This document shows, one piece after another, positions 3,050 through 44,975 of a stretch of DNA of 64,000 bases (position 1 is its first letter; every line of letters starts with the position of its first letter). This DNA is from Naegleria gruberi (taxonomy: Eukaryota), in assembly GCA_000004985.1 (NCBI GenBank), contig GG738905.1; one strand, 5' to 3'. A program made the translations under genes and the position numbers. The notes beneath the pieces were generated by a model. It was not told the origin of the DNA, ran no database searches, and worked only from the letters and a program-made list of their open reading frames with translations.

Positions 3050-3099
3050 NNNNNNNNNNNNNNNNNNNNNNNNNNNNNNNNNNNNNNNNNNNNNNNNNN
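3050..3099. other. assembly gap (50 N)
   Basis: Run of n characters read directly from the sequence. Confidence 0.98.
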
Positions 3100-3388: not shown

Positions 3389-4303
3389 TTAATCTGCAAA
3401 TCCAGAACCTCCATGGCTTGAGGAGCCACCTCCACCACCACCACCTCCTCCTCCAAAATCATTCGAAGTGGTATAATTGGTATCATTGAAAGAGGAATAA
3501 TTACCACCACTCCCATCACCACCATTTCCTCCACCACCTCCACCTTTTCTATTCCTCAAAACACAAAATAATATCAGACCTGTAAGGAGGAAAGTTCCAC
3601 CAATTACACTAAGGATAATGGCTGCATTGATGGCACTTTGGTCAATTAGGCATTTATCGTATTGGTTGGAATTGGTACGAAAGGTTACGGATGGGGTGTA
3701 TTGAGAAATGAGATTTGATTTCTGATAGAAAATGGAATATTGTTGATTGGAATTGAGTGTGAGAATTCCATTGCTGTCAGGAGTTGGGGGATTTGAGAAA
3801 TCAATAGTGGAATCAAAGATGAATGTGGAATTTAGATTTAAAATCTTGTAATTATCCTTGTAATAATACGAAACTTGATAAGCCTTTTGACTTTCAGTTT
3901 GGAAGAAACTGTTCGATCCAGAAATAGTATACGAAAGTTTAAAGGATAGTACAGTTATTCCATTTTCAGGAGTTGACGGCTCCAAATACAGTACTACATA
4001 TGGACTTTCACTAATTTTCTGATACTCACTTCTAATGTTATATCCATTATCCGAAACTAAAGTCACAGAACGATCATATGCATTGGAAGCGAGTGGAGGT
4101 AATGCTCTTCCAATTCTAGAAAAGGTTCCATTAAATTCATATTGAAAATATTCAACAATTTTCAATGAACAATCTCCGTTTCGAATATAAATTTCAGAAG
4201 AAAGTGATTGTAGTGAGTAGGATTTGGCAGTTGAAGAATTGGTCATGGCTGCTAGCAGCAGTAAAGCTATTAGAAATGCAGACAACAGGACGAAGATTCG
4301 CAT
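3389..4303 (-). CDS. type I membrane glycoprotein: signal peptide, extracellular domain, single TM, Gly-rich cytoplasmic tail
   Basis: Real ATG at 4303-4301. N-terminal hydrophobic MRIFVLLSAFLIALLLLAAM followed by multiple N-x-S/T sites. TM AAIILSVIGGTFLLTGLILFCVL then basic RNRK and poly-G. Single exon. Confidence 0.55.
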   Translation of the reverse strand: MRIFVLLSAFLIALLLLAAMTNSSTAKSYSLQSLSSEIYIRNGDCSLKIVEYFQYEFNGTFSRIGRALPPLASNAYDRSVTLVSDNGYNIRSEYQKISESPYVVLYLEPSTPENGITVLSFKLSYTISGSNSFFQTESQKAYQVSYYYKDNYKILNLNSTFIFDSTIDFSNPPTPDSNGILTLNSNQQYSIFYQKSNLISQYTPSVTFRTNSNQYDKCLIDQSAINAAIILSVIGGTFLLTGLILFCVLRNRKGGGGGGNGGDGSGGNYSSFNDTNYTTSNDFGGGGGGGGGGSSSHGGSGFAD

Positions 4304-4723: not shown

Positions 4724-5189
4724 TCATTTAGTAATTTCTTTCAATTCATTAAGGTGCAACACTTGAACGTCATACGTATTACTCAATGTGTGAACACCAT
4801 AATCATTTGAAAGAAGCTTTACATTATTATTAATGCAAACGTTTTCTTTGAGATATTTGGCTGTCAAAATAATTTCCTCATCCCATGTAATATCTCCAAC
4901 CAACATGCTCCTAATATATTTCTGAACATCTTCTACAGGTTCATTATGTCTCAATGAACCTAATGAATCAGTAATTTGTTGTAGAGCTACTATTTTTTTC
5001 CTCAAAGCATTATCATTCTTCAAGCCATCCAATTCTATAAGAACTCTCCTGGGGAAACAAACTAACTCACCTAATAATTCAATGTAATCAAATACCTTTT
5101 GAGTTTCATCAATTTTCATGGTTATCAAAATATTGGTGTCAAACACCCAAATGCCAGTTATTGGTTTAACTAAATGATGAACAGTGCTG
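4724..5189 (-). CDS. PIN-domain-like protein, 5' end lost in the scaffold gap
   Basis: The frame stays open upstream of the listed M up to the N-run (..PITGIWVFDTNILITMK..). The VFDTNILI motif resembles PIN-domain motif I. The N-terminus is missing in the gap. Confidence 0.45.
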
Positions 5190-5239
5190 NNNNNNNNNNN
5201 NNNNNNNNNNNNNNNNNNNNNNNNNNNNNNNNNNNNNNN
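5190..5239. other. assembly gap (50 N)
   Basis: Run of n characters. Genes on both strands run into it. Confidence 0.98.
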
Positions 5240-7631
5240 AGCGTAAGTTTGGATTCACTTTGTTGACATTAAGATGTTAATTTTCGAAAATTCAGATGGT
5301 GAAATTGTTGAGTGCTACTCTTTAGAACCATTCATTGAGGGAGAATATCAAAAATATTTTAGTAATAGTGGAGAAGTGCCATGTATTGCGGCAGCCATCC
5401 AGTCTCCAGAAGTAATGGCATTATTCCAGACCTCCCAAACGTTCTCCCATTGGACATATGAAATAACCAAACAAAATTTAATAGTTACAGATATTCAGGG
5501 TGTGAAATATAGAATGACAGATCCAGCAATTTCCTCAGTAGGTCAATTATATGGAGAAACAGACACTGGTGAGGAAGGATTTAAAGACTTTTTTGAAGCT
5601 CACTATTGTAATGAACTTTGTTTAAAACTTGGATTGAAACATCCAAACGGTGATTTGTACATGGAACATCCATCTCTTCCAAAAACAATTTCAAACACAA
5701 TTGACCATGTAGACTTCTGTTCAGGATACTGTTGTGGAAACTATATTGAATACAAGATTGGTGAGAAAACACCAGATGGCACGCTTTTTTGCAACAAATG
5801 TAACCAGCGTAATAGTATAACTGAAAAGAAAGTTTGTAAAAAGAAAGGATGTTCCCTTAAATTTGAAATTGAAAGATGGTATTGGGTATCAACTGGAAAA
5901 CATCCACCAACCAAATGTCATCTACACAGAGGAACTATAGCATCTGAATTAAGGGATTGGAAGAAAAACAAAACCCTACCAAATGGAGCTCTCTTCACTC
6001 AAGAAGAAATGCAAAATCAATTAGATAAGGATCCAGATTTGAAAAAGCAATTTGAGAAGAGTATCATCCAAGAAAAGAAACCAGATTTATTTAATACTGT
6101 TGTTATTTCAAATCTCCCTGCTAGAACAAATTCCATGGATATCTTTAATATGCTTCCCCCTTTCTTCACTAATAGAAATCAGAAAGTGAAAGTCACTGAA
6201 CTTGAAGTGCCTTCAACCTTCAGCATTGAGTTTGAGAATGAACCAATTGCGTTAGAGGCATATCAAATTCTTGGATCATACATCCATAGAAGAAGATTAA
6301 TTGTTTGTAGACCTCTACAACACAAACATGAATCAGTGAAACTGGATAAAAGCTCCATCAATATTCAGTTGTCAAAGTATCCAAATGTTAAATGCAGTGA
6401 TATTTTACAATATTTCAAGGATTCGAATTACAAAATTCAAGACAAGTACTATGAGGAAAACAAGTTTGCAAATTTCACATTCTCTGATCCCTCAATAGCA
6501 CCAACCTTGGTCTCAAAAGGTTTATCTATTGATGGCACACTTGTTAAAGTTGTTTATAAGAAGGAGAAGCCAATTACTAAACAAGATGTACCACTAAAGA
6601 ATTTTAAGGAAAAGAAAATAGAAATTGATGAAAACGTTGACAAGACATCTGTACACATCAAATGGAGACCTAAAAATCCATCCGAATCTGTTCAGTTGCA
6701 AGAGATTGATCTTTTAAAACTTTTGAACCAATCTGACATTTTTAAGAAGAAATTCAATTCTGCTAAATCATTTATGCAAATTACTTTCAAATCAGAACAA
6801 TCTGCAGCATTATTGATTAAAAATGGTTTAAAGTTGCCAAACTTCAAGTTTACAATCAATTTCAAGAAGATACAAGAAAATGAAAGGAGCAATGATTGTA
6901 ATGAAAAACGAGTACAAAGTGAGGCCAAATCCAAAAAAGAAAAGCAATATCCAAAGGTTGTGGCAAACTCGCTTACTCCAACATCTGATTCAACTACCAA
7001 AAATCTTAAAAGCAATATTTCAACATCTAACAATCAATCACCCAAGCAACAAAATATTTCTAAAATGCAAAATTTGATGTTTGTTTTTGATATTAACACA
7101 CTTTTGAAAATTGGTAATTTACGTAATTTACTAGGACAATTTCTAGAAAACCACATCCAGTTTTGTGTTCCAGATATTAAATTGGACGAAATGAACGAAG
7201 ACACGTTTGCGGTTCAAAATTTAGTAGATGAATTCAAAGAAATCAATGTACAAGTTCCTGATGAATCAAATAATCTCACTTTAAGAACTCTTAAAGTAAC
7301 CAAAAAGGTGTCTGACAATTATCCAAATAGGAATGTTATGCTTGTGACAGATGATAAAGAATTGAAAGCTAACGCAGATAAATTCAGATTGAATGTTATC
7401 AATAGCTCAGCAATGAATCAATTAATTAGACAGTCAAGCGTAAATAATTCAGTACCAAAGCCAATACCATCAATTTCCAATCCATCACAAAAATCTACAA
7501 CTATTCCAACAACTAATACTGTTGAAACAATTATCATAGAACCATCTAATCAAAGAACAACCAACACACCTGTACCTGTTCCTGTTTTGCAAAGTATGAC
7601 CAAACTGATTAGTCATGGAAAGAGAAAATGA
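5240..7631 (+). CDS. alpha-kinase-family protein (C-lobe only visible) fused to an RRM-like segment and a C-terminal PIN-like domain; 5' exons missing in the gap
   Basis: First ~120 aa (LEPFIEGEYQKYFSNSGE...QTFSHWTYE...LIVTDIQGV..MTDPAI..GETDTGEEGFKDFFEAHYCNELCLKLGL) match the conserved C-terminal half of the alpha-kinase catalytic domain (MHCK/eEF2K family). The visible sequence starts mid-domain. agc|gtaagtttggattcactttgttgacattaag|ATG directly after the gap looks like a 31-nt intron (5243-5273), so upstream exon(s) lie in or beyond the gap. Residues ~265-340 (VVISNLPAR..LIVCRP) are RRM-like. The C-terminus FVFDINTLLK...VMLVTDDKEL is PIN-like. Confidence 0.55.
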
Positions 7632-7772: not shown

Positions 7773-10700
7773 CTAATGGAGAGAAATGATAGCTTGTTTT
7801 TCCACATGTTGAGCACTTGAAGACATTCTCAAATTATCTAAACTCATTCTCAATGCAGAATCTCCTCCTCTAAAAACCTCCAAAGTTCCCTCCCTTAAAT
7901 CATCTTCCTTATTTGGTTCGTGAATGTATGTTTTCATTTGACCTTTTCCTTTCACTTCGACATATCGTTCTTGGAATTCGTGTTTATCTTTGAGTCGTTG
8001 ATAGCATGTTTCGGTTACTTGAATGAATCCTGCAGGGCATGTACTTTCCATTCTTGAAGCAGTCTTTGATAATGTTATTTAAATTGTAAAGTGTGAAAAA
8101 TAAACTTACATTCACAGCATCAGACCAGACATCGTAGGCATATTTCAATACTCCACAAACTCCTGCAACTATTGGTCCAGAGTTAATGCCAACTCTTATT
8201 CCAATATTCAATCCATGATCCTCACAAAACAATTGAACTACTTCTGACAACTTGACAGCAAATGTGAAAGTTCTTTCCACATGATGAGCTTCATTCATAC
8301 CATCAGGTTTCAATCCAGCAGTACAGAAATACTTGGATCCAATTGTCTTTATCTTTTCCAAATTGAAATTGATGGTCAAGTCATCAAATTCATGAATAAT
8401 TTCATTCAAAGTTTGAACCAAATCAAAAGCAGATAAATTCAAATCCAATAATCCAACAATATCACTAAACAAAATGGTTACATCATCGAACTTGTCAGCA
8501 ATCAGAGTTTCTCCTGCAATCAGACGTTGAGCTACACTCTCTGGCATGATATTCATCAAGAGAGATTCGCTTTTTTTCTTTTCCTCAGCTAGTTCCTTAA
8601 CTTGTACTTTGTGTTCTGAAATATCACGCATGAAACATGAAATGATGTTTCGTCCTTCTAGTGCCGAAACTGAAATTCTCAATTCAACTGGGAATGATGA
8701 AGAATTCTTTCTTAAACCATTTAGTTCAAGAGTTTCAGAATAGCTTGTGGCAGAAACTCCCATTTTGGAAATGACTGGTTCTAGATTGGCAGCTGATTCC
8801 TTGTCAAATAATTTGTGGAGTGGAAATCCAATAATTTGATCTCCTCTGAATCCAAATAACTTTTCAGAAGCATTGTTGAAAATGTCAATTGTGCCACTTG
8901 ATGAGCAAATGACAGCACTCGTTAAGGCAGCTTCTAGAATGGCTCTTTCTTTTGTCGTTTTGAATTTGTTTTTCGATCTGGACTTTCCATTAGATAAGAG
9001 ATGGAAGAAGATATAGTTTCGAATATCGTCATTGGTATCCAATATTTCCCATGGAATGTAATTGAACAATTTTCTGAGAACATAATTTTCATTCTCAATG
9101 GTAGAGGTATACGTGTAGGTAATCCATGTCAGAAATAGCAATAATGGACAACCTAGGACAGCTGACAGTATTGTCATCAATGGTTGTTCTTGGAAAAAGT
9201 TGTAATAACAGAGTTTGTTTAAGGTTTCCAAATTGGTGAGTAGTACTATGGAATGATCAAAGAGAAATTCTGCCAATTCATTGATTTGTTTCATTTCTAG
9301 AGAGATAGTTTCGTTTGAGATTAGTAATTGATTGAAATTCAAAATGCTAGTTCTGAACTGCCCTATTTGGGTATCCAAAGATTGACAATCAAAATGAGAA
9401 CAATTAGTTGGCAATGTCAATAATAAATTGTCGATATTCGGATTGAATCCACTCAAACTAAAGTAATCATCAATTTGAGAACCATATCTCAACATATTCC
9501 AGTTTCTGTCAAATAAACTCATATCTGCCAATAATCTGTCATGAAATTTAACTCTCTTCTCATAATCTGCAATTGAAGCTACTTGAAGAAGATCATATCT
9601 TAAACTCTGAGATATATGCATTGATTGTGCTGTAGATTCCAACTTGTAAAGTCCATGTTCCAATATTTTCAATTTTCTGAAAATATCAGCAACGATCAAA
9701 GACATGGTTGCTGTGGCCACAATGAAGGACAAACAAACAACAATTACCAAAAAACTATTGGATGAGATACTATCCTTTGTGGAGTCTACATTCGTACCAT
9801 CCTTATCAATCAATCTCTCCATTCCAATAATGACCTTCTTGGATTCGTCTTTTGGAATTTTCTTAAACAAGTTTAGGATTTGTTTTCTCTGGTGAAGGAA
9901 TTTAAAACTACAAAAACCATTGAAAATCAAATATAGAAAGAAAATTAATCCAATAAATGATGATAAGGCAATGTAAGCATATGAATAGTTCCTTAATTCG
10001 CCTTGTTGGAATTGAAGAGTTTTTTGGAAGAAATCTAACATTCCATCTGAGAATGCTACTCGATTCATTTCAATGAAATTCAATAATTCTTGACTGATCT
10101 TCAAGTTGGATGTGTTTGTGGAAATAATTGTTTCAGATAGAACTCGTTTCGTCTTTTTCACAAACCATGAAGTTGAGGAATTTTTGTAAACTTGATTATC
10201 AAGAAGGAGAGTCTTGTCTTGTTTAGTATACAATAAGGAAACCAATTCATTGAATGAGAAGGAATCGAATAGAGTTTCGAACGAGTCAATCTTTGCAAGG
10301 TCGTTTTCCAGAACGTTCTGAAATGATTTTCTATACTCTAAAGATGAGCTATAATTCAAAGTTGACATTGCTCCAATATTTCCATTCACATTCGAAACTC
10401 CACAAAGTGTAGAAGTCGGAATTGAACTCAACATGGCAGATTTCAACAAAATATCGAATACACTATCATTCTGTGTAAATGAAAGTCCAACAATTAACAA
10501 AATTGCAATCAACACAATCGAAACCAAACCAGAGCTCACAATAAAATAAAACGTCGTTCTATTCTCATCCTTCTTATGAAGTGCCGAGCTGAAAACTTCT
10601 TGTTGCTTATCAGCTTGATCCATCAACTCTTCTGGTTGTTGTTCACTTACAGAGATGGAATCAAAGGCCTCATCATTGACATTCTCACTGAACATGTCGA

Positions 10701-12705
10701 CTCTCATGCCGTTGTTGTTATTGCTGCTACTACTTGTGTAGCTCTTTGTTATGATGAGTTCTCCGTGTGTTTTATCTGATCTTTCATTATCTGAGTTGTT
10801 GTTATTGGATGAAGAATGTTGTGAGGATGGTTTGAATTTGAATTCTTCCTGATATTGAGCGAACATTTTCTGAATGGCATGATCTTCCTCATTGTCTATA
10901 AGGAGATTGTGGAAAGCTAGGTCGCATTCATTGGATAATCTTTGAATTTGTTGAACAATAGTGTCAACAGCAACAGAGGCCAATAAATTCTTCCAAAATT
11001 GGACAATTAGTAATCTAAGCATTTTGATTCTACGCTTCGTTCCCTCCATAATGATATCAGAGGCTCCCGAAGATGAAGTTCTCCCTTCAGATAAATTCTT
11101 TTCCAACTCTTTTGTTCGAATATAGAGAGAATATTGAATGAAAATGTTGGCTCTCTTTTTCTCTGCCTTCTTAATCACTATTAAGGCAAGAAAGAAGTTT
11201 GGTATTTCCTTGTAGAACATGGAAATGAGAATTAAACTCTGAGCATCATGGACTTCTGATTTGTGAACGATTCTAATGGCATCATTTGCTAATTTCTTAT
11301 CCTCATCCGATCCTTTCAATGAAAATTTAATAAAAGTTGACAAGTAAGGCAACTCTCTCTGTGTTAACAGGACATCAGATCCACAATTTACAATTGCCTT
11401 AGCGAGATGCGACCCCCTCCTCTTCACAGACTTGGAATAGAATTCCAATATCAGAAATCCAATCACGAAAAAGATGATTCCCAAAACAAGAGGTGAAAAA
11501 GTCAATCCCAATCCAAATTCCCACATGTCATCCACGTTGATGAGAGTACTCACGAGTGAGGCAATTCCTACTCCAACTCGAGCAAATCCAATTCCACCAT
11601 AAACTGCATTGGCTTTCCTCCTCAAGAATGGTAAATCGACAAACATCAAGACAATAAATCCAATAGAAAGAACAATATAATAGACAGGTCTCAGGAAATT
11701 GACTATATGAGGAGTCACTCCTGCCACAATCAAGTACAATTGATTCGTTCCAATCAGATAGCTCATCACGAATGGATTCTCCAAAACAAATTTGGCCTTA
11801 CTCGCCACCATCGTATCACAAAATATCATGACCGCGCTCATAGTGATCAGAATTTGAATGATACAGAACAGTAAACTGATACTAGCCAATATACCATTCA
11901 TCGTGCCCCAGCATTCCACATTTCTGAAATTCCTCAATGCAAATGAAGGTGGAGCTCCCTGAACAATAGAAACCTTACTAGTAAAATCACAATCAAAGAA
12001 ACCTTGCATGAGACCATAGGTTATTGGCAGAGAGAGGAAGGTCATTAGGAAGAAGACAAATCTACCTCCAGTTCTGATCTTTTTCCAATAAGAGCTACCC
12101 AGAATGATGGATCGGTAGGTAATGTAAATAATCAGAAAGCAAATTGACTGCATCACAAAGACAATCACTGCCAATGCAATAAATCCTTCATAGGGCAAGT
12201 ATTGAAATCCCAATGTTCTTGGTATGAGTAATATGTTATAAATGTATCTGCCATATTCACCCCAATTATAATCGATGGCCACTCCTAGTGAAAGCGTCTG
12301 ATAGGCAATCAGCATGTGTATCGAGAGACACATGAGTGGATGCAATGGTTTTTCCAATTTGAGTGATTGAACAAACATGAATAGTTTCCTAGTGATGGCT
12401 CCTTGATTGTCTGTTTGTGAAGGTTGTGAATTCACACCAGACAGTTCATCAGAAATTACATTAAAGTAACCACCTCCTCCTGCTGTTGTTTTTGTTATTG
12501 CTGCTGCTTGATTCCCTGAAGCATTATTAAGACTACTAGTACTTCCATTGATGGGAAGGATTGAGTTGGAGCTGGGAGCTTCGGAGAGTCTGTTAGTCGA
12601 TCGTCTGGAGAGAAAATTCGACCTCGTCTTGAGATTCCTTCCACTATTACTAGTATGAAGTGTATTGTTATTGTTATTATTTGAATTTGAATTTGATTTA
12701 TCCAT
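7773..12705 (-). CDS. polytopic membrane class III nucleotidyl (adenylyl/guanylyl) cyclase with an internal PAS-like domain; 2 exons
   Basis: Exon 1 is 12705..~8110 and exon 2 is ~8063..7773. A 46-nt intron (gtaagttt...atcaaag) splits the cyclase motif ..YDVWSDAVN|TASRMES.. and the phases agree. The cyclase homology domain shows FSDIVG.., IKTIGSKYF, GIRVGINSGPIVAGVCG, YDVWSDAVNTASRMES and KGKGQMKTY. About 8 TM helices lie at the N-terminus with further hydrophobic segments mid-protein. PAS-like segment ERAILEAALTSAVICSSSGTIDIFNNASEKLFGF. Real ATG at 12705. Confidence 0.75.
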
Positions 12706-14397: not shown

Positions 14398-15547
14398 TTA
14401 TTTCTCCCAACCATATCTTTGAGCAACTCTGAAGAAAGCTTCCTTAGCTTCGTGTTCAGAGTATGGGGAGGTGTTTGAGAAATCCAATTGAGCTTCACCT
14501 GCAACCATTTCAGATCTGATTTGAACAAAGATTGATTCAAGAGAACAGACTGAACTCCAACCAGAGCTAGTCAACAATTCCATACAAATGGAACCACCAA
14601 TAGTGACGTGACCAGTACGGAAGGCAAATCTTGGCTTGAGAACTCTGATGAATGGTGGCTTGAACGGGAATTCAAGAGGGAAGGTCAAATCCAATGTAAT
14701 GTAACTGGTTGTGTTAATCAATTTGAAATAAAGAGATACTTACTCGATACCATTCTTCTTCTTGTATTCTTGCAAATCCTTGGCAATTTTACCATCTTCC
14801 TTGATATCAAAATTGAAGAATCTGATTTCCCAATGGAAAAGATCATCATTGACAGGATTGGCACTAATACCAAACTTTTCAGTGTTAGCTTGTTTAATCT
14901 TCATATATTCCTTCATAATGCAATTAACACAACCTTCTGAGGCACCAGTTGGTTTTTTGAATTTCTTCTTCATTTCTTCAAATTCTGGATCATATCCTCC
15001 ACTTGATTGATGAGTAACTGGTTGGATTGGATCATCATCCATATCATCACCAATATCAATTTCAACTTCCTCTGGTTCTTCGTCACCACCATCTTCATCA
15101 CCCAACAAGGCAGATTCAACTTCCTTGTAGAGAGCAGTAGCCTTTTGTAAAATATCAGTGAGAGATCTCTTTCCACTTCCACAATAATCACTCAATGATT
15201 TGACAAATTTAACATCTCCAACTTCTTCCAAAAGATAGTATTGACTGGTAACTTTCTATCATGATCAAGAATTAAATTATAATAATTGATGTATTTGATT
15301 GATAATTGATGTTGATCAATTTAATAACAAATAGTACATAAACTCTCCATCATCATTCAAATACTAAATTACTTACGAATGAATCTCCATTCTTTGTTAC
15401 GGAAAAGTATGGATTATCTTCAGCATCTACTTCGCTATCTACAATGACAATAATCTTCTCATCAGTACTATTACTCTTCAAAGTCCAAGAGAAGGAATTT
15501 TCCTTTGGGTTGTTGATGAACTTTTCTGCTTCAGCCTTTAAACTCAT
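14398..15547 (-). CDS. UBE2Q-family ubiquitin-conjugating enzyme E2 (3 exons) with long N-terminal extension
   Basis: Exons are ~15547..15377, ~15255..14744 and ~14704..14398. Donor ttc|gtaagt and acceptor gatag|aaagtt (phase 0). Second intron is 39 nt, gtaagtatc...aaccag, phase 2. The C-terminus ICMELLTSSGWSSVCSLESIFVQI..YGWEK closely matches the UBE2Q UBC core with the catalytic Cys. An acidic D/E insert sits in exon 2. Confidence 0.65.
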
Positions 15548-18491: not shown

Positions 18492-19923
18492 TTATTGATA
18501 GACAATTGTGGCTGATTTGGCAGCATACTCAACCAAGTTATGCTCGTTTTCGCCAACACCAAATGAGGTTTCAATAAATGCACACAACATTACGTTAAGA
18601 CCCTTAGGTTTAAAAATGTATAGCAAATGGTCAACTTCTGCAAAACCAATCCTCTTTACAAAATGGAAGTGGTATCGCGAAACTGAATCGAATGCACTAG
18701 CTCCAAATTTTGATGTGGCATCTTCATCCCTTACAATTGTCTCAATGCCATTGAAAGCATCATGGCTCAATTTGTGGAATAGCATATTTTCATATAGACC
18801 TTTTGTAAATTCGTAATCTTCATCTGTACATGAACTAATTTTCTGATAAACTATGGAGAGAATTTCAATTTGATCAGTTTCAGGACCGAGGCATCTGGTA
18901 GACCAAAATTCTGCTTCATAGTGGCTATGGCTATCCTTATTTACAGATTGTGCTTTCTTTACAATCCAATCGGCTGGAAGAAGAATGGTCAAATTCTTGC
19001 TTACAGATCTCTTTGTCCATCCCTTTACAAATTCATCAACATCAGAATTTTCCACAACAGGACGACTATTCGAGACGACACTATTACCATCCCAGTGACC
19101 TAATTCAATTCGAGCATGCTTATTACTCTCTTCGAGTAATAATGCTGCTGTAAAATGTTCGTTACGAATAATTTTAACTGATGCCTCAAGAGCTCCAGAG
19201 ATAGAGTTATCCTCCCTCAAAGAAGATAAATTTCCTTGTGATGCACTAGCCCTCAATTCGTGAGAGTCTGTATCTGGAGTACCGTTTGTATGATCAATTG
19301 TTGAACTATTGGAAGAAGTTGGAGAGCCAGGTCTAGAATTATGCATTCCCTTCATAGCAATCTTGATCGATTTTTCCACGTTCACACAACTCAAATCATC
19401 CCCATCCACATAAAAATCTCCTTCTGCAATCTTTTTATCCTTTCTCAATGTATGGGACTCCATTAATGTGAACCAAAATTTAATTCCATGCTGAGAACAT
19501 TCAATGGATGGAAAATCAAATTCTAATCACCATTAAATAATCAATATTGGAATCCAATATAAATTCAAAACAACTCTCAAAGAACTTACCTTGATTCCAA
19601 TTAAATACAAATTCATCTGTTTGATCATTGATCTTGACTTGAACTCCTGAAATATTATCATGAGATTCAATTGGTGTTGAGGCACATGATTCGGGATCAT
19701 AGGTTGACAATGCCTCATGACTATTTACACGATCCATTCCCAAATTTTCCAAACAAGGTGTCGATTTAACCTTAACAACTGTCTGTTTGTGACTCTTTTG
19801 ATCACAATGATGAGTTCCAGCCTGTTGTACCATCAAATAACATTTTCGTGGCAAATCCGCATGAGGAGCAAAGTGTCCAGCAAGAACTCGAAAATGTATT
19901 GAATCACCCTTAGCAAATACCAT
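18492..19923 (-). CDS. hypothetical protein, 2 exons (~450 aa), S/T-rich central region
   Basis: Exon 1 is 19923..19590 (donor caag|gtaagttc, phase 1). Exon 2 is 19522..18492 (acceptor gattag|aatttg). The ORF-table frames join correctly. No domain recognised. Confidence 0.45.
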
Positions 19924-20705: not shown

Positions 20706-23700
20706 ATGGACTCACACAATATCAGAGTTTTTCAATCACAAGATATTTTGTGCCCACACGATCTCGGACAGCCCTACTGCAGTGCTGCGAGTGATAGTTT
20801 ATTCTGGGTCGCATACAATGGAATTGTCAAAGGCTACTCGACACAAACAACACAGAAAGAGTTTCATTGCCTTTATGAATTTCAGCCTTTGTGGAATCAA
20901 GTGGATGCTATTCATTATTTGCCAGATATTAGGAGAGTAATTACGGTGGAAAGGAGAGTTTTATATTCATCATCTTCATCATCATTGAATGGAGGAGCAA
21001 CAATAACATCCTCTCCGATGAATAATAGTTTAAATGTTTTGGCAACATCATCAAATTTGACGGATTTTAAATCAAATCTCACGAGTGTTAATAATAATAA
21101 CAGTCAGGGAACAAATGGTGGAGTGAGTGTGGAGCAATGTTGTAGAGTTTATCATTTTGATTATGATAAGAAGGAGAGAAAGACAATAATTACACCTTCT
21201 ACATTACCGATTCAACATTTTACGACATTTGCTAGTGGAGATTCTTTAAATAGTGAATTGCTTATTTCTGTCTGTACATATAGTAATCAACTGTTGACTT
21301 GTGTGAAGGATGTTATTTCATTGTGGAAATTTACAAATCATGATACATCTGTTTGTGTGTTAAAACTTCACACTTCTTGGAATGTCAAGTGTATTTCTGT
21401 TTTTAACCAATTTATTGGGTACGGAACAACAAAAGATGTCCGTGTTGTGGAATTAAAATTAAAAGACAGTCAAAAGTTTGAATTTGTGGAGAATATTCAA
21501 GAGGATGACCTCATGGAAGAAGCTGAATTACAAAACAATGCAGAAATTCTCAACACTAAAAATCTATCACTATTGGATATTCAAAAGAAAATTCAATCAA
21601 GAATTCAGGATCAATTTATTGGACCAACTATTGAAACTCAATCCACACCAACCAGTACTTCCATTCTACAAAGGCAAAGAAATGGATCTGGTCCCCTCAC
21701 AAACAAGACAATGGCCATGTATTGGGGTAAAAGTCAATTGGAATCTAGTGACGAAATACAAATTCGTCTCGATATGGCAACCAAAGAATTACTTCCTTCT
21801 CCAGCCACTCAGAAATACAGTGAGGCTGTAGCAATAACACCTGAGGATAGAAAGAAGAAAAAGACTGCCATTACATTTTCAACTAATATTGCCTATGATA
21901 TTGTTGGAGAAACCACAACAGTCGATCACCCAGCTTTTGTAAATACTCACTACATGTAAGTTATCAATATTATTGACCTATGAATTTGTTTATTCATTAA
22001 TAATTACAGTGAGGCTTGTACCAATTTACTTCACAAACATTTCACCGATGAGGAAAGTCCAAGATCTATTCACTTTCTTCAAAACATTGCTCAAAAGAGA
22101 GACTTTAATCAAAATACAGGCATGAAATGTATTTTGAGTACTTCAACTTGTGGTTATGTTTATGGATTATCGAGTCCTCAACAATTACTTTGCGAATTTG
22201 AATATACAGGAGAATGCTTAATGAGTGCTGTCAATTCATTGTTCCTTTATGCTATTACACCAGTAGGATTGGAAATTTGGTCAGTTCTTGGCAGTAATAA
22301 TGGTTGCCTTCTCAGGTTCCATCCTTTCATTGGTCTCAAGAACGTCTCTGCCACAGACAAGCATGTCATTCTTCTCTCCAAGATGAGCAGCAACGAGAAT
22401 GTTTCCATTGCTGCCTATTATAACCAACAGACAGAGAAGACTGTTCTCGTGTCTGACATGAGAAGCATTGAGAAAGTCAGTAGAGCTTCAACAGCCAAAG
22501 AGGGTTCAAGAAGTGGCTCACTCCTACCAATTTTCAGTGCAAGAAGAAAAAAGGAAGAACCAAAATCCACAGCCCAACCAGTTGTTGAAGAATTTTCCTA
22601 TAACATTTATGCCCTGAACTCGGTAGAATTATGTGAAATTTATGAAGACATGCTCGAACATGCCATAATGTACAAGACCCAAGATAATGCCAAGTATATG
22701 AAACTTTTGAAGGAATCTCACAGCTTATTGCAATCAAAATATTTTGAACTTTTAGCAAAGGAAAAGAAATTGGATAGACCAGAGACAGATCCGGTCATTA
22801 TTTTAAAAACAAGAGTGGACTTGCAAAACTATACTACATTATTGAAGAGATCATTCGGATTAATAGGTGATACCTATGTTTCTGCTGGACAAATCGATAA
22901 GGCAGCCTATGCTTATTCGAATAGTGACAGACCAATCGATAATGTCTTTGAGAATTTGTCTGTTAGAGAAGAATCTCTTCTTCTCTTCCTGGATCATGTT
23001 CTCTTTGATAATGACATTAGCAATATGGAGAAGGTTTGCTCAGAAGAATTGGGTGATAAAATACTCTCCATTTACAGGCAAAGAACGCCACACAGATTGT
23101 CCAATGTCATCTTATCTGGTAGTATTAACTTTTCCAAGAGTCATGCCATCTCACTATTGCATGAAATCAGTGAAGAATATATCAAGGCTCAACAGACTGT
23201 TTCTCAACTTGAAATGAGTCAAGGAGAGCAAAACTGCATTGGAGAACAATCTTGGTTTGATATCATGCCTAAAGATGCAATTGTTCTTTCATTGATGCAA
23301 TTGAACAATGGAGAAGCTGAGCAAGCTATTACAATTTTAAGGTCTGTGGAAGGCAACTGTTTGGTTGACTTTTTGATCAATTATCCAAACTTGTTAACTT
23401 CACCAAGCGAGCCATTCTCCTTGTTTGCAAAAACTATTAGAGAATATGCTCCATGGTGTTTATTGGAAGCCCTTGTACGTTTGACCTCTGCTAATTGTTG
23501 TCCATTAGAAACTCAACACGTTCTCAATTTGCTGAAGGGAGAAGAAATCAAATTTACAGCTGAAGAACTTCCAATTACACCTCTTGTGATGCAACAAATC
23601 TACTTGTCCTCACTACTTATTGCTGGCGATTATACAAATGAGAAAATACTAATTGATAATGCTCTCCTATTACTCAAAGTATTCATATCGGAATTGGAAC

Positions 23701-32343: not shown

Positions 32344-33462
32344 ATGAAGTATGAAAATTTAGGTAACACTGGCTTGAAAGTCTCCAAAATCTGTCTCGGA
32401 TGCATGAGTTTCGGCTCACCAAAATGGTTTGATTGGGTTTTGGAAGAATCAGAATCAATGATCATTCTCAAGAAGGCCTGGGAGTTGGGAATTAACTTCT
32501 TCGACACTGCCAACATTTATTCGAATGGTGAAAGTGAGAGAATTTTGGGTAAATTCATTAGGGAGAATAACATTCCGAGAGAGGAAGTTGTTATTGCCAC
32601 TAAGGTTTTTGGTCCGGTTGACAAGAGTGGAGAACAAAGATTGCTATTGTTGAGTGATGATAAGAAGGTGAATACTCATGGATTGTCGAGAAAGCATATT
32701 ATGCATGCTGTTGAGGAATCATTGGAAAGATTGGGAACTGATTGTAAGTAATTTTGAAAATTGCATCTCTTGGTTGACTGAATATTGTAAACAGACATTG
32801 ATTTGTATATTATTCATCGTTGGGATCCAGACACTCCTATTGAAGAAACCATGGAAACTTTGCATGATTTGGTAAAATCTGGAAAGGTCAGATATATTGG
32901 TGCCTCTTCAATGTTTGCTTGGCAATTTGCTAAAGCTCAACATTATGCTGATAAGAAGGGATTGACCAAATTTATTTCCATGCAAAATCTCTATCATTTA
33001 CTTTATAGAGAAGAGGAAAGAGACATGATTCCAATGTGTTTGGATCAGAAAGTTTCCTTAACTCCATACAGTCCACTTGCTAAGGGAATTTTGGCAAGAG
33101 CTCACGAATTTGTCAACTCTGAGAAAACAAGCAATGATGAGGATGATGATGAGAAATCCAAGAGAGCAAATTCAGATTTCATTCAAAAACAATTCAAAGA
33201 AACCATGACTGAAGGTGATAAGGAAAATTTGAGAAGAGTTTCAGAATTGGCTAATAAGAAGAATGTCTCACCAGCTCAAATTGCTATTGCTTGGCTATTG
33301 AAGAAACCAGGAGTTACTAGTCCTATTGTTGGTGCCACAAAAGTATCGAATATAGAATCGTCAATTGCTGCTTTGGATATTGAACTCACCCCTGAAGAAG
33401 TCAAATATTTGGATGAATCTTATACAGCTAAAGCACCTCATGCAGTTGGTGTTAGAAAGTAA
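32344..33462 (+). CDS. aldo-keto reductase (AKR) family oxidoreductase, 2 exons
   Basis: Exon 1 is 32344..32743 (..LGTD T|gtaagtaat, phase 1). Exon 2 is 32795..33462 (aaacag|ACATTGATTTGTAT). The joined sequence ..YIDLYIIHRWDPDTPIEETMETL..GKVRYIGASSMFAWQ is the AKR signature. GLKVSKICLGCMSFG at the N-terminus. 51-nt intron. Confidence 0.8.
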
Positions 33463-39715: not shown

Positions 39716-40471
39716 ATGTGTTGGTCTCTCAGAGCTTCCTTGTTCTTTTCCATCCTAGGAGGATTGATGACTTTGGATCAGATTCGAAGAACACTTGCTA
39801 TTCGAAAGGAGTGGAGAGCACGGAGTATATCTCAAGTATTAATGTACCTGTCGTATACCTTGATGGAATTCCTACAATTTCTACAGTATTGGTTTGGAAT
39901 TGAAGGAACGTGTGGCACCACTTCAAATATTTTCCTGTCAATTGTGGCTCACTTTCTAATTTGGACTCAACCACTGGCACACAATTATTGGTGTTTAAGG
40001 AATACAGCGAAGGGAAGAAGTACTTTCAGATATGCTTTGTTTTGCTCCTTCTCCACCCTAATTCTGGCAAGTATCAGTTTGGCAATGGGTTATTTTCAAG
40101 TTGGTGGATTTGGTGTTGGAATTGAAAATGACAATCTGGAAGGTGTTCCAGGAAATGTTTTGGGAATTGAAATTCAAAATGTGAATACCAAATTGTGTTC
40201 AATGCAAGGACCTAATCATTTATATTGGATGTTTCCCTATCATCCAATATGGGGACATGGCATTTCGTGGTTTACTTGGTTGATGGTTGCTGCATTTCCT
40301 CATTTCTTTAGATATTCAGTTAAGGATAATGATTTCTTTGGAAAGAGTTGGGTGATGGGAAGTGTTGTCGTTGGTGGATGGTTAGTTGCCTTGGCAGTCA
40401 CTTTGACAATTGGCAATTTCCATGAGACACCTTCTTATTGGTGCCTTATTTCAGTTCCATGTTTGGTGTAG
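39716..40471 (+). CDS. hypothetical polytopic membrane protein (251 aa, ~6 TM, W/C-rich)
   Basis: Real ATG. Multiple hydrophobic helices. It ends ~70 nt upstream of the retroelement repeat. Confidence 0.4.
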   Translation: MCWSLRASLFFSILGGLMTLDQIRRTLAIRKEWRARSISQVLMYLSYTLMEFLQFLQYWFGIEGTCGTTSNIFLSIVAHFLIWTQPLAHNYWCLRNTAKGRSTFRYALFCSFSTLILASISLAMGYFQVGGFGVGIENDNLEGVPGNVLGIEIQNVNTKLCSMQGPNHLYWMFPYHPIWGHGISWFTWLMVAAFPHFFRYSVKDNDFFGKSWVMGSVVVGGWLVALAVTLTIGNFHETPSYWCLISVPCLV

Positions 40472-40539
40472 CCCTATGTGTCTGCATTCTTCAATCCTAA
40501 ACGATTCATTGTTCGAGAGGAATTGTATGTCAAAATGCC

Positions 40540-40795
40540 AAAGTCTTCATCTTCTGAATATGATTCAAAGAAAGTTGCCTAATTTTTGAGGGATGAGAAT
40601 TGATGGATTGAAAGCCTCCATCTCATTGAGAATGAGCATTGACAATAATAGTGGAATCATTCAATGTCGATTTGAAACTATTTCAAATAAATTTCGAGTT
40701 GGAATCTGCTACTTTTTTTAAGTGTTTGGTGATAAACGTTGGGTCAATTTGTTACTTTCCATTTTGAGGAGTCATGCAGATTTCTTGAATGAAAG
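40540..40795 (+). repeat. terminal repeat A1 of the DIRS-like element
   Basis: About 90% identical to 44976-45236. Both start aaagtcttcatcttctgaatatgattcaaagaaagttgcctaattt and end gatttcttgaatgaaag. Confidence 0.85.
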
Positions 40796-40796
40796 T

Positions 40797-40915
40797 TGAA
40801 GTGAGTACCCCACTCACTAAGGTTTATTGTAAACTACACACACCAATAAATATGAAAAATTTTTGTCTGAAAAAATTTCAACACAGCAAGATGTTAAAAG
40901 ACAAGATTTACGCTC
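40797..40915 (+). repeat. repeat B1
   Basis: ttgaagtgagtaccccactcactaaggtttattgtaaactacacacaccaataaatatgaaaaatttttgtctgaaaaaatttcaacacagcaagatgttaaaagacaagatttacgctc is identical to 44800-44921. Confidence 0.9.
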
Positions 40916-42034
40916 TTATTAAAGAACACTCCAGTGATGTTATGGCTAGTATGCCTCCAAACACCATCAAGATGGTATTGGATCTACTTGGCGAAAACCC
41001 TGAAGACAAAGAAAGATGGCTAGAAATTGTTGAAGACGCAGGTGGTGCGTTATTCAACAACTTCTCAACAAAAGCAGAGGCCCAGGAATACTTTACCAAA
41101 GGTATTAAGAAGTTAGCAAAGAGTGGTAAAGTTGCTTCCACTAGAAGTAAGACTACCTCTTTGCAAGAGGCAAGCACTCCAAGTAACATGAATAAGACTT
41201 CTTCTTCATCTCAAATGGCTACCCCAAAGGTTTCTAGCGTTAGTCAGGTTAGAGAGTTCGTCCAAAAGAGAAGGATTGAAGAAACAGACGACAAGGAGTG
41301 GAAGAGAAGAGGTGTTATTCTTGACCCAGCTGATTTCCTTGAAAAGCCAGCTACTTGGAATCTCCCAAGTAGACAACAATGGGAAGAGATGAACCGCCAA
41401 ATCAACATTTTAGTGGTCGGTAAACAGGTTGAAGAAAAGGTTAAGGAAACGTTTCCGCCATTGAGTACCAATAACCAAGCATTGAAAGCAGAGTACGACA
41501 CCTTGAAAGAGGTCGCAGGAAGCGTCTACGGTGCTGCATTGTTGAACAAGGATGAGTCAGTTGCAGACAAGTTGGAGGGTGCCATTGAATATATCAAGGA
41601 GAAAGCGGTACACCTCAAGCTCGTTTCCTTCGACAAGCATCTTGCGGAGAAGGTTCGTATCATTCGTTCAGATAAGACCTGGAGAGAACAGGCTGACCTT
41701 ATTAAGGTCGCCTCCAAGTTGATGAAGGTAGAAAGTGAAGTGATTAAGAATGGAAACTTGCCAGTCATCAATAATATGACTAAAGCTGTTGAAAAGGCAA
41801 GAGATACCTATCCTGTAGCTTCCCACTGTTTCAAATGCGGAGAAGTTGGACACTTGGCAAAGAATTGCAATAAATCCACTTCCAAATACGTCTCGGTAAG
41901 TACTATTTTTCGATCCTCCAGATGCGGCAGAGATACGGGAGAGGAAACAAGCTGTTCACTCCATTTCGAATGCTTGGAAGGAGTGGAAGAGAAGAGGAGC
42001 GAAACCTTCGATAATAAGGCTCCTGAAAGAGGGT

Positions 42035-44925: not shown

Positions 44926-44975
44926 NNNNNNNNNNNNNNNNNNNNNNNNNNNNNNNNNNNNNNNNNNNNNNNNNN
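44926..44975. other. assembly gap (50 N) between B2 and A2
   Basis: Run of n characters. Confidence 0.98.

What the first reader, a model, noticed from the sequence alone, without database searches (positions are those of the whole stretch)
4724..7631. Gap-split locus: divergent PIN-domain gene and an alpha-kinase/RRM-like/PIN multi-domain gene both run into the 50-N gap
The plus-strand gene begins mid-way through an alpha-kinase catalytic domain (the N-lobe is missing). A probable 31-nt intron lies right after the gap. The same protein carries an RRM-like segment and a C-terminal PIN-like nuclease fold. The oppositely oriented neighbour is also PIN-like and 5'-truncated by the gap. I do not recognise an alpha-kinase fused to a PIN nuclease fold as a described architecture. 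It suggests a kinase-regulated RNA nuclease or NMD-like factor. The gap hides the kinase N-lobe and both promoters.
Basis: partly seen in the sequence, partly recalled or inferred. Interest (0 to 1): 0.6.

Follow-up and report, generated by a model that had tools for sequence, protein, structure and literature searches.

The report
Gap-truncated Naegleria alpha-kinase with RNA-type modules
Two real Naegleria gruberi genes face away from an unsized assembly gap: a small PIN nuclease gene, and an alpha-kinase that lost its front half to the gap and carries three degenerate RRM-fold modules plus a weak, unproven PIN-like tail, which is an unusual but only partly verifiable domain combination.

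Summary
The window is Naegleria gruberi, which belongs to Heterolobosea, not Amoebozoa. A 50-N placeholder gap (5190-5239) separates two divergently oriented genes. Both are already public as truncated "predicted proteins" (NAEGRDRAFT_73531 and NAEGRDRAFT_73532).

**Confirmed**
- The plus-strand ORF (5274-7631, 785 codons) opens in the middle of an Alpha_kinase domain (Pfam profile 75/81-185 of 185, about 119-127 bits). All C-lobe catalytic and zinc ligands are intact.
- The minus-strand neighbour is a complete PIN_4 domain (34.9 bits) that lacks only its start codon.

**Supported**
- A Cys/His module follows the kinase and is conserved in the relatives.
- Three RRM-fold modules follow it. Two fold as beta-alpha-beta-beta-alpha-beta, and Foldseek returns only tandem-RRM proteins as top hits. 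The third is a duplicate of the second.
- Pfam RRM_1 does not match, and the RNP aromatic residues are degenerate.

**Not established**
- The C-terminal PIN is unproven. PIN_4 scores 19.7 bits, below the 21.9 cut-off (E 0.0011).
- Similarity to the neighbour's PIN is weak (z about 4).
- The AlphaFold model is unusable (pLDDT 40).
- No homologue of the tail exists among 1.84 billion representative proteins.

**Probably wrong**
- The "31-nt intron" translates in frame into kinase sequence that matches the closest relative.

The closest relative is a Naegleria lovaniensis protein with vWA, alpha-kinase, Cys/His module and two RRM-like modules, but no PIN. The function is inferred only.

The parts
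4724..5188 (-). Small PIN-domain gene (public model NAEGRDRAFT_73531 / XP_002671506, 131 aa). The stop codon is at 4724-4726. The frame stays open up to the gap, and the start codon is lost in the gap.
   Evidence: ORF and translation. 100% identical to P0005, 'predicted protein [Naegleria gruberi]'. The public model starts at Met24 (5119) and so cuts off the first strand carrying the VFDTN aspartate.
4757..5149 (-). Complete PIN_4 domain of the neighbour gene. It carries the motifs VFDTN, IELDG, WDEEI and LSNDY, so all four acidic positions are present.
   Evidence: Pfam PF13638: 34.9 bits, E 2.2e-8, residues 14-144, profile positions 1-129 of 132. Assigning the motifs to catalytic positions is my inference from general PIN-domain knowledge.
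5190..5239 (.). Scaffold gap of 50 N. The length is a placeholder. It hides both 5' ends, the intergenic region, the kinase N-lobe and probably a vWA domain.
   Evidence: all three gaps in the window are exactly 50 N. In the closest relative, P0003, 459 residues precede the point aligned to window base 5247.
5243..5273 (+). It is disputed. Bases 5247-5273 are more likely coding (VWIHFVDIK), blocked only by a TAA at 5244-5246.
   Evidence: For an intron: GTAAGT is rare (7 on the + strand in 64 kb), and several copies are genuine donors of 39-67 nt introns. Against an intron: the in-frame translation aligns without gaps to P0003 (IGLKVLEIQ); the chance of an open frame with an equal or better score is 0.006; the Pfam score rises from 124.7 to 126.6 bits and the profile start moves from 81 to 75; the tblastx match to the N. 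lovaniensis gene begins at 5247; that gene has no introns.
5247..5621 (+). Alpha-kinase catalytic domain, C-terminal part only (profile positions 75-185 of 185). It contains the zinc ligand His in FSHWTYE, the catalytic Asp and Gln in TDIQGV, the Asp in TDPAI, a Gly-rich loop, and the zinc ligands in AHYCNELC.
   Evidence: Pfam PF02816: 118.8-126.6 bits. PDB matches: TRPM7 kinase 1ia9 (E 1.4e-13), eEF2K, MHCK A and ALPK1, with residue-level alignment. Motif coordinates.
5706..5939 (+). Cys/His-rich module, presumed to bind zinc, directly after the kinase. It is conserved in all three relatives and matches no Pfam family.
   Evidence: Invariant C149, C154, C173, C176, C188, C215 and H218 across four proteins. 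It is the part of the query matched by P0003 (E 2.4e-22) and P0004. The only Pfam signal is a non-significant zinc-ribbon hit (E 0.12). AlphaFold2 confidence is low here.
6093..6314 (+). RRM-fold module 1. It has an RNP2-like VVISNL motif, but its RNP1 motif lacks the canonical aromatic residues.
   Evidence: AlphaFold2 secondary-structure order E-H-E-E-H-E, pLDDT 53-66. Foldseek returns tandem-RRM proteins. Homologous to module 1 of N. lovaniensis P0003 (z 5.0, 0 of 1000 shuffles), which itself scores 15.6 bits on RRM_1, below the cut-off.
6351..6563 (+). RRM-fold module 2.
   Evidence: AlphaFold2 beta-alpha-beta-beta-alpha-beta order, pLDDT 51-74. Foldseek alignments of 170-285 columns span two RRMs.
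6645..6881 (+). RRM-fold module 3, a tandem duplicate of module 2.
   Evidence: Collinear 55-residue alignment to module 2 (z 4.5, 3 of 1000 shuffles). AlphaFold2 did not fold this module, so the fold is inferred from the duplication.
6882..7067 (+). Low-complexity linker rich in Ser, Lys and Asn.
   Evidence: Composition.
7068..7439 (+). Lineage-specific domain of about 120 aa that is weakly PIN_4-like. Its motifs are FVFDIN, IKLDEM (Lys where the neighbour has Glu), PDESNN and VTDDKE.
   Evidence: Pfam PIN_4: 19.7 bits, below the 21.9 cut-off, E 0.0011. Ten decoys gave no PIN hit. Collinear weak similarity to the neighbour's PIN. hhalign was not significant. No PDB, NCBIfam, PADLOC or PHROG support. 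AlphaFold2 pLDDT 39.8, unusable. No homologue in the exhaustive search.
7440..7631 (+). Tail rich in Thr, Pro and Ser, presumed disordered, followed by the stop codon (7629-7631).
   Evidence: Composition and ORF end.

Best explanation
Two genuine Naegleria gruberi genes diverge from an unsized scaffold gap.

**The plus-strand gene (NAEGRDRAFT_73532)**
- It belongs to the vWA-type (VwkA-like) branch of the alpha-kinases. The gap has removed its 5' part, which would hold the kinase N-lobe and, by analogy with its relatives, probably a vWA domain.
- What remains encodes, in order: a catalytically intact kinase C-lobe; a Cys/His (zinc) module conserved in this subfamily; three degenerate RRM-fold modules, the third a duplicate of the second; a low-complexity linker; a species-specific domain of about 120 residues that is probably a diverged PIN_4-like fold; and a disordered tail.

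**Likely mechanism (inferred, not shown)**
- The protein is most likely an active Ser/Thr alpha-kinase.
- Its C-terminal RRM-fold modules target it to an RNA-protein complex or a protein partner.
- The PIN-like tail most likely acts as a weakened or non-catalytic binding module, as the PIN domain of SMG5 does, and not as a regulated nuclease.

**The minus-strand neighbour (NAEGRDRAFT_73531)**
- It is a free-standing PIN_4 protein with all four acidic residues, so it is probably an active small RNase.
- The kinase's tail may derive from an old duplicate of this gene.

**The '31-nt intron'**
- It is most likely coding sequence. The stop codon four bases after the gap is either the end of an intron that starts inside the gap (acceptor AG at 5246-5247) or a contig-end error.
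For: - **Identity and public models:**
- **Single open frame of 785 codons:** chance about 3e-26.
- **Alpha_kinase match:** 119-127 bits, covering only the C-terminal 105-111 of 185 profile positions.
- **Catalytic residues:** the Asp/Gln/Asp residues and the His/His/Cys/Cys zinc ligands align to TRPM7 kinase 1ia9.
- **Relatives:** P0003 (N. lovaniensis) and P0002 carry vWA, a full Alpha_kinase domain and the same Cys/His module. P0003 and P0004 add RRM-like modules, and P0004 adds a canonical CCCH zinc finger.
- **RRM fold:**
- **PIN_4 in the neighbour:**
- **Weak PIN_4 signal in the tail:**
- **Intron region is coding-like:**
- **Gap length is a placeholder:**
Against: - The PIN-like tail fails the Pfam threshold. 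hhalign against the neighbour is not significant (E 0.13). No structure could be obtained.
- The RRM modules get no Pfam RRM_1 hit. The model supporting them has only moderate confidence (overall pLDDT 43). Their RNP aromatic positions are mostly non-canonical, so RNA binding is unproven.
- The vWA domain is inferred only from paralogues. The N. lovaniensis locus shows no synteny with this window, so P0003 is likely a paralogue and not the orthologue.
- GTAAGT at 5243 is a rare hexamer that usually marks true introns in this window. This keeps the intron reading alive.
- No expression or functional data were available.
Confidence: 0.55

Rival explanations
1. The tail is an active PIN endonuclease fused to the kinase, so the protein is a kinase-coupled RNA nuclease. 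This would resemble IRE1 or RNase L in logic. The RRM modules would bring in the RNA substrate.
For: - The first-strand Asp (FVFD, D606) and the last Asp (VTDD) align with the neighbour's catalytic positions.
- A third Asp (PDES) can be aligned by eye to WDEE.
- The PIN_4 hit at E 0.0011 beats all 10 decoys.
- RRM-fold modules are present.
- The relative P0004 carries an RNA-type CCCH finger.
Against: - The second acidic position is Lys (IKLDEM against IELDG).
- The third Asp depends on the alignment, and MAFFT places a gap there.
- The Pfam score is below threshold, and only the last third of the profile matches.
- No fold evidence exists.
- The tail is absent from the closest relatives, so it is not a conserved functional core of the subfamily.
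Confidence: 0.15
2. The tail is not a PIN domain at all. It is a fast-evolving species-specific segment whose resemblance to PIN_4 and to the neighbour gene is chance. The protein would then be simply a VwkA-like alpha-kinase with a Cys/His module and RRM-fold modules.
For: - The score is below the Pfam gathering threshold.
- PIN_4 was not listed when the whole protein was scanned.
- hhalign gives E 0.13.
- No hits in PDB, NCBIfam, PADLOC or PHROGs.
- No homologue in 1.84 billion representative proteins.
- The AlphaFold2 model did not fold into anything recognisable.
Against: - Two partly independent weak signals point to the same family. The Pfam hit covers the C-terminal third (E 0.0011). 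The match to the neighbour covers the N-terminal strand and is collinear over the whole domain (z about 4.1-4.2; 2-5 of 2000 shuffles).
- The signature motifs fall in the right order: hydrophobic-hydrophobic-Asp-x-Asn at the start, and hydrophobic-Leu-Val-Thr-Asp-Asp-x-x-Leu near the end.
- The decoys gave nothing comparable.
Confidence: 0.3
3. The kinase fragment is a decaying or truncated gene, or an assembly artefact. Either the TAA at 5244-5246 is real and the protein starts at Met5274 without an N-lobe, making it kinase-dead, or the two contigs are wrongly joined.
For: - An in-frame TAA lies four bases after the gap.
- The automated public model starts even further downstream, at Met81.
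- The scaffold join cannot be verified here.
Against: - A 785-codon frame is intact.
- Every C-lobe catalytic and zinc ligand is conserved.
- Homology continues right up to the base after the stop codon. This is expected if the exon continues upstream beyond an intron or an error, and not if translation starts at 5274.
Confidence: 0.08

Closest known systems
Naegleria lovaniensis XP_044543997 (C9374_010400, 911 aa; P0003), an uncharacterised 'Alpha-type protein kinase domain-containing protein'
   Same: - 41% identity across the kinase C-lobe.
- The same Cys/His module (E 2.4e-22 over query residues 23-178).
- A homologous RRM-like module 1 (z 5.0) and a second RRM-like module.
   Different: - It has the complete kinase and an N-terminal vWA domain. 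In this window that region is hidden in the gap.
- It has two RRM-like modules, not three.
- It has no PIN-like tail.
- Its gene has a single exon, and its flanks show no synteny with this window. It is therefore probably a paralogue.
Dictyostelium VwkA (von Willebrand factor A alpha-kinase)
   Same: It is an alpha-kinase of the branch that pairs the kinase with a vWA domain. The nearest relatives of the window gene have this vWA plus alpha-kinase arrangement (description of VwkA in PMC2827801).
   Different: In VwkA the kinase sits at the extreme C-terminus (PMC2827801). Here about 670 further residues follow it: the Cys/His module, the RRM-fold modules and the PIN-like tail. The presence of a vWA domain in the window gene cannot be tested. 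VwkA is linked to myosin II regulation, and nothing here bears on that.
PIN_4 family (Pfam PF13638; from my own knowledge this includes the PIN domains of SMG6, SMG5 and Swt1)
   Same: The neighbour gene is a clear member. The kinase tail shows the family's terminal motifs and a sub-threshold hit. SMG5 is the precedent for a PIN fold that has lost catalytic residues and serves as a binding module (my own knowledge, not tested here).
   Different: There is no 14-3-3-like or TPR region, nor any other NMD-factor feature. The tail fails the family threshold and has Lys at one acidic position. No PDB PIN sequence is matched by either protein.
IRE1 and RNase L (kinase or pseudokinase fused to a KEN-domain RNase)
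   Same: The similarity is conceptual only: a protein kinase fold on the same polypeptide as a ribonuclease fold.
   Different: The folds are unrelated: an atypical alpha-kinase and not a eukaryotic protein kinase, and PIN-like and not KEN. No evidence of coupling exists. This is an analogy from my own knowledge, not a tested relationship.
Tandem-RRM proteins (hnRNP A1 UP1, SFPQ/NONO, IMP3 RRM12, nucleolin RBD12)
   Same: These are the best structural matches to modules 1 and 2 (Foldseek E about 1e-5, probability 0.99-1.00, 170-285 aligned columns).
   Different: Sequence identity is 12-18%. There is no Pfam RRM_1 hit. The aromatic residues at RNP1 positions 3 and 5 are largely replaced, as read from the sequence. 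The query model is of only moderate confidence.

Membership tests
Alpha-kinase (Pfam PF02816) | Profile HMM score above the gathering threshold | tested here: met
   118.8 bits (whole ORF) to 126.6 bits (with the 9 extra residues), against a cut-off of 21.3.
Alpha-kinase (Pfam PF02816) | C-lobe catalytic Asp/Gln, metal-binding Asp and the His/His/Cys/Cys zinc site | tested here: met
   The alignment to TRPM7 kinase 1ia9 shows FSH, TDIQGV, TDP and H-x-C-x3-C all conserved. Residue roles come from my knowledge of the published ChaK structure.
Alpha-kinase (Pfam PF02816) | N-lobe with the ATP-binding Lys and P-loop (profile positions 1-74) | not testable with these tools
   This region lies inside the 50-N gap. 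No other copy of the locus was found.
vWA-type alpha-kinase (VwkA-like) | N-terminal von Willebrand A domain upstream of the kinase | not testable with these tools
   Hidden by the gap. It is present in the relatives P0002 and P0003.
vWA-type alpha-kinase (VwkA-like) | Shared Cys/His module immediately after the kinase (a feature of the relatives found here, not a published definition) | tested here: met
   Seven invariant Cys/His positions in four proteins.
PIN_4 (PF13638): C-terminal tail of the kinase | Profile HMM score above the gathering threshold | tested here: not met
   19.7 bits against 21.9, E 0.0011, profile positions 87-128 only. Not listed in the whole-protein scan.
PIN_4 (PF13638): C-terminal tail of the kinase | Four conserved acidic residues forming the metal site | tested here: inconclusive
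   The first and last Asp align with the neighbour's. The second position is Lys. The third is aligned only by eye, and MAFFT puts a gap there.
PIN_4 (PF13638): C-terminal tail of the kinase | PIN (Rossmann-like alpha/beta/alpha) fold | tested here: inconclusive
PIN_4 (PF13638): minus-strand neighbour | Profile HMM score above threshold with full domain coverage | tested here: met
   34.9 bits against 21.9, profile positions 1-129 of 132. The precomputed Pfam annotation PF13638 on P0005 agrees.
RRM (PF00076) | Profile HMM score above the gathering threshold | tested here: not met
   No hit for any of the three modules, even at E up to 10. The N. lovaniensis module 1 scores 15.6 bits against 20.7.
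RRM (PF00076) | beta-alpha-beta-beta-alpha-beta fold resembling solved RRMs | tested here: met
   Modules 1 and 2 meet this: secondary-structure order and pLDDT 50-74, and all 50 top Foldseek hits are tandem RRMs. Confidence is moderate. Module 3 is inferred from its similarity to module 2.
RRM (PF00076) | Canonical RNP1 and RNP2 aromatic residues for RNA stacking | tested here: not met
   Read from the sequence. Module 1 has an RNP2-like VVISNL but Thr and Ser at RNP1 positions 3 and 5. Modules 2 and 3 keep only the position-3 Phe.
NMD factor of the SMG5/SMG6 type | 14-3-3-like/TPR phosphopeptide-binding region together with a C-terminal PIN | tested here: not met
   No such domain appears in the Pfam scans of the ORF. 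The part hidden in the gap cannot be checked.

The most novel reading that the evidence does not exclude
The tail is a functional PIN endonuclease. This Naegleria protein would then join an atypical alpha-kinase, three RNA-binding-type modules and an RNase on one chain. That would be a kinase-nuclease coupling analogous to IRE1 or RNase L but built from unrelated folds. It would have been assembled recently by capture of a copy of the adjacent free-standing PIN gene, with which it shares a divergent promoter region.
Probability: 0.12. Interest if true: 0.7.

Novelty: new variant of a known kind. Interest (0 to 1): 0.36.

Why it matters
Alpha-kinases are known to be fused to ion channels, vWA domains, WD40 repeats and Ig domains. 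They have been tied to translation (eEF2K), the cytoskeleton and innate immunity.

This work points to a small subfamily in Naegleria, plus one protein from an unidentified sequencing sample, whose kinases carry a conserved Cys/His module followed by RRM-fold modules. In one case a CCCH finger is present, and here a possible PIN fold. That would link this kinase class to RNA or RNA-protein biology, a connection not described in the literature I could search.

If the PIN tail were real and active, it would be an independent invention of a kinase-nuclease fusion.

On the practical side, both public gene models (XP_002671445 and XP_002671506) are truncated by the gap and by automated start-codon choice. 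The RRM-type and PIN-type parts are invisible to routine Pfam annotation.

Tried and rejected
1. **Closing the gap.** No other copy of the locus or protein turned up. The exact look-up of P0001 found nothing. The word-indexed searches returned only the public models. The exhaustive HMMER search of residues 117-785 against 1.84 billion representatives found only the protein itself, P0003 and P0004.
3. **Other sequence routes to the PIN.**
   - PDB phmmer with the tail, with the neighbour, and with a two-sequence profile gave no PIN hits.
   - NCBIfam, PADLOC and PHROGs gave nothing relevant.
   - hhalign of the tail against the neighbour gave E 0.13.
4. **A 53-nt alternative intron (5243-5295).** Rejected, because it would delete MLIFENS. 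That stretch aligns to LLVFTDA of P0003 and lies inside the Pfam match.
5. **Synteny with N. lovaniensis.** tblastx of the 22.7-kb locus L001 against the window matched only the kinase gene. P0003 therefore cannot be called the orthologue, and its neighbourhood holds no PIN gene to compare.
6. **Profile search with the Cys/His plus RRM alignment.** It returned only P0001, so the search was wasted.
7. **Literature.** No paper holds both 'alpha-kinase' and 'PIN domain'. None mentions the locus tags or accessions. I could not retrieve published Naegleria intron-length statistics.
Full report
**What is in the sequence**

The window is Naegleria gruberi, which belongs to Discoba, Heterolobosea and not to Amoebozoa. 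A run of 50 N occupies 5190-5239. The window holds three gaps, and all are exactly 50 N, so the length is a convention and says nothing about how much is missing.

To the left of the gap, a minus-strand frame is open from the gap edge (5188) to a stop codon at 4724-4726. To the right, a plus-strand frame of 785 codons runs from 5274 to 7631. An open frame of that length has a chance probability of about 3e-26 at this base composition. The last 190 codons alone have a probability of about 7e-7. The kinase part and the C-terminal part therefore belong to one gene.

Both genes are public as automated, truncated 'predicted proteins':
- XP_002671445 / NAEGRDRAFT_73532 / D2VWW9, 705 aa, starting at Met81 of the ORF.
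- XP_002671506 / NAEGRDRAFT_73531 / D2VWW8, 131 aa, starting at Met24 of the visible fragment.

**The kinase**

Pfam Alpha_kinase (PF02816) matches residues 5-116 at 118.8 bits (E 3.9e-34). Only profile positions 81-185 of 185 are covered.

PDB sequence matches include the TRPM7 kinase domain (1ia9, E 1.4e-13), eEF2K, MHCK A and ALPK1. In the printed alignment, the following all line up with their TRPM7 counterparts:
- the His of FSHWTYE;
- the Asp and Gln of TDIQGV;
- the Asp of TDPAI;
- the H-x-C-x3-C of AHYCNELC.

From my knowledge of the published ChaK structure, these are the catalytic residues and zinc ligands of the C-lobe. The visible half thus looks like part of a working enzyme and not a decayed fragment.

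**The supposed 31-nt intron**

GTAAGT at 5243 and AAG at 5271-5273 do delimit a 31-nt GT-AG candidate. Two points favour it. GTAAGT is rare here, with 7 copies on the plus strand and 11 on the minus strand in 64 kb. At least four copies, plus one I read by eye in the neighbouring cyclase gene, are clear donors of introns 39-67 nt long that join long ORFs.

Several results argue against it:
- Bases 5247-5273 translate in the ORF's own frame to VWIHFVDIK. This aligns without gaps to IGLKVLEIQ, directly upstream of the aligned LLVF in the closest relative.
- The chance that a random 27-mer is open and scores as well in that fixed register is 0.006.
- Including these nine residues raises the Pfam score from 124.7 to 126.6 bits and moves the profile start from 81 to 75.
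- An unbiased tblastx match to the N. lovaniensis gene starts at 5247.
- That gene has a single exon.
- A 31-nt intron would be shorter than any seen in the window.

I therefore think this stretch is coding. The TAA at 5244-5246 would then be either the end of an intron that begins inside the gap (acceptor AG at 5246-5247) or a contig-end error. This is not settled and needs cDNA. A 53-nt alternative (5243-5295) is excluded because it would remove residues that lie inside the homology.

**Relatives and what the gap probably hides**

I ran an exhaustive HMMER scan of ORF residues 117-785 against 1.84 billion representative proteins. It found only three proteins:
- P0001, the protein itself.
- P0003 (E 2.4e-22), Naegleria lovaniensis XP_044543997, 911 aa.
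- P0004 (E 1.1e-4), 962 aa, from a Logan assembly of run SRR28082858.

The first word-indexed search had also returned P0002, a 763-aa protein from metagenomes.

Pfam gives these architectures:
- P0002 and P0003: vWA plus a full Alpha_kinase domain.
- P0004: Alpha_kinase plus a canonical C-x8-C-x5-C-x3-H finger, which scores 20.4 bits against a cut-off of 20.5.

By analogy, the gap most likely hides the N-lobe and a vWA domain. In P0003, 459 residues precede the point aligned to base 5247. The gap also hides both promoters and the PIN gene's start. The real gap is therefore probably well over 0.5 kb and may be 1.5-2 kb (inference). The N. lovaniensis locus shares nothing else with this window, so P0003 is better regarded as a paralogue.

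**After the kinase**

*Cys/His module (about residues 145-222).* Seven Cys/His positions are invariant in all four proteins. The module matches no Pfam family and is presumably a zinc-binding extension of this kinase subfamily.

*Three modules with an RRM-like sequence pattern (residues 274-347, 360-430 and 458-536).*
- Pfam RRM_1 does not match any of them. The N. lovaniensis counterpart of module 1 reaches only 15.6 bits against a cut-off of 20.7.
- An AlphaFold2 model built on a four-sequence alignment is poor overall (pLDDT 43). It does give pLDDT 50-74 and beta-alpha-beta-beta-alpha-beta order for modules 1 and 2.
- Foldseek against the PDB returns 104 hits at E <= 0.001. All 50 top hits are tandem-RRM proteins such as SFPQ/NONO, hnRNP A1 and A2B1, IMP3 RRM12, nucleolin RBD12 and Sxl.
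- Module 3 did not fold in the model. It is a collinear duplicate of module 2 (z 4.5, 3 of 1000 shuffles).
- Module 1 is homologous to the N. lovaniensis module 1 (z 5.0).
- Read from the sequence, the aromatic residues at RNP1 positions 3 and 5 are mostly replaced. RNA binding is therefore plausible but not implied, because such degenerate RRMs often bind proteins.

*A Ser/Lys/Asn-rich linker (residues 537-598)* comes next.

**The PIN-like tail (residues 599-722)**

Evidence for a PIN fold:
- Scanned alone, the segment scores 19.7 bits on PIN_4 (E 0.0011), over the last third of the profile.
- One reversed and nine shuffled decoys gave no PIN hit, and nothing better than E 0.015.
- The N-terminal strand (MFVFDINTLL) matches the neighbour's IWVFDTNILI by BLASTP (E 0.018).
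- Local and semi-global alignments to the neighbour's Pfam-validated PIN are collinear across the domain. They give z 4.1-4.2, and 2-5 of 2000 shuffles reach the observed score.

Evidence against, or missing:
- The Pfam score is below the gathering cut-off of 21.9.
- PIN_4 was not listed when the whole protein was scanned.
- hhalign of the two single sequences is not significant (E 0.13).
- There are no PIN hits in PDB sequences, NCBIfam, PADLOC or PHROGs.
- The single-sequence AlphaFold2 model is unusable (pLDDT 39.8). Fold searches on it mean nothing.
- The tail has no detectable homologue anywhere, including in the N. lovaniensis relative.

On the acidic positions, the first and last Asp align with the neighbour's. 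The second position is Lys (IKLDEM against IELDG). The third can be aligned only by eye (PDESNNLTLRTLK against WDEEIILTAKYLK).

My estimate is about 60% that this is a diverged PIN-type fold, and well under half of that that it is an active nuclease.

**The neighbour**

PIN_4 scores 34.9 bits (E 2.2e-8) and covers profile positions 1-129 of 132. VFDTN, IELDG, WDEEI and LSNDY provide all four acidic positions (motifs; the assignment to catalytic positions is my inference). The gap removes only the start codon and perhaps a few residues. The public 131-aa model wrongly removes the first strand. No close homologue was found.

**Most likely mechanism**

*Shown:*
- An alpha-kinase C-lobe with intact catalytic and zinc residues.
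- A subfamily-specific Cys/His module.
- RRM-type folds.
- A separate bona fide PIN_4 gene in divergent orientation.

*Inferred:*
- The complete protein is an active Ser/Thr alpha-kinase of the vWA-type branch.
- Its C-terminal modules localise it to an RNA-protein complex or to a protein partner. The CCCH finger in P0004 independently hints at RNA-related targeting in this subfamily.
- The PIN-like tail most probably serves as a weakened or non-catalytic binding module. It may derive from an old copy of the adjacent PIN gene.

'Kinase-regulated nuclease' remains possible but is the less likely reading. 'NMD-like factor' has no support.

**Comparison with the known, and novelty**

The gene is a member of the alpha-kinase family. 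The HMM and C-lobe features are met, and the N-lobe is untestable. It sits closest to VwkA-like kinases, but in Dictyostelium VwkA the kinase is the C-terminal end of the protein (PMC2827801). I found no description of alpha-kinases joined to RRM-type or PIN-type modules.

I rate this a new variant of a known kind. The kinase, Cys/His and RRM-fold arrangement is real and shared by a handful of proteins. The PIN addition is unique to this gene and unproven.

Interest is moderate (0.36), for three reasons. The most striking element failed its threshold test. The gene is incomplete. No functional data exist.

Noticed in passing
window 3050-3099, 5190-5239, 44926-44975: All three assembly gaps in the window are exactly 50 N, so gap lengths in this scaffold are placeholders and carry no size information.
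   Followed up: yes
window 7773-12705 (-), intron 8064-8109: A large multi-pass membrane protein with a PAS_9 domain and a class III adenylate/guanylate cyclase catalytic domain (113 bits). The cyclase domain is split by a 46-nt GTAAGT...AAAG intron between ...DAVN and TASRMEST..., so the 1573-aa mechanical ORF reads into the intron at its end.
   Followed up: partly
window 14705-14743 (-), 19523-19589 (-), 21956-22009 (+), 32744-32794 (+): Short GTAAGT...AG introns of 39, 67, 54 and 51 nt each join two long ORFs. GTAAGT is rare in the window (18 copies on both strands), and a large share of the copies are genuine donors.
   Followed up: partly
window 5706-5939 (+); also P0002, P0003, P0004: A Cys/His-rich module with seven invariant Cys/His positions directly follows the alpha-kinase domain in all four related proteins and matches no Pfam family. 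It looks like an undescribed zinc-binding extension of vWA-type alpha-kinases.
   Followed up: partly
L002 857-3745 (Logan SRR28082858 contig, protein P0004): An alpha-kinase from an unidentified organism carries the same Cys/His module, an RRM-like stretch and a canonical C-x8-C-x5-C-x3-H zinc finger (20.4 bits against a cut-off of 20.5). Its kinase domain looks degenerate (26 bits, DIQGV replaced). The source organism was not determined.
   Followed up: no
window 3389-4303 (-): A 304-aa ORF with a hydrophobic N-terminus, a hydrophobic segment near the C-terminus and a long poly-Gly/Ser tail. It has no Pfam hit and runs towards the 3050 gap region.
   Followed up: no
window 40001-44000: GC content rises to about 0.40, against about 0.34 elsewhere, with strongly positive GC skew (0.15-0.21), just before the third gap. 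Not examined.
   Followed up: no
L001 4752-6260 (-) (N. lovaniensis PYSW02000042.1): A second VWA_4-containing gene (438 aa) lies about 4 kb upstream of the N. lovaniensis vWA alpha-kinase gene, suggesting local clustering of vWA genes. No PIN gene is present in that 22.7-kb locus.
   Followed up: no
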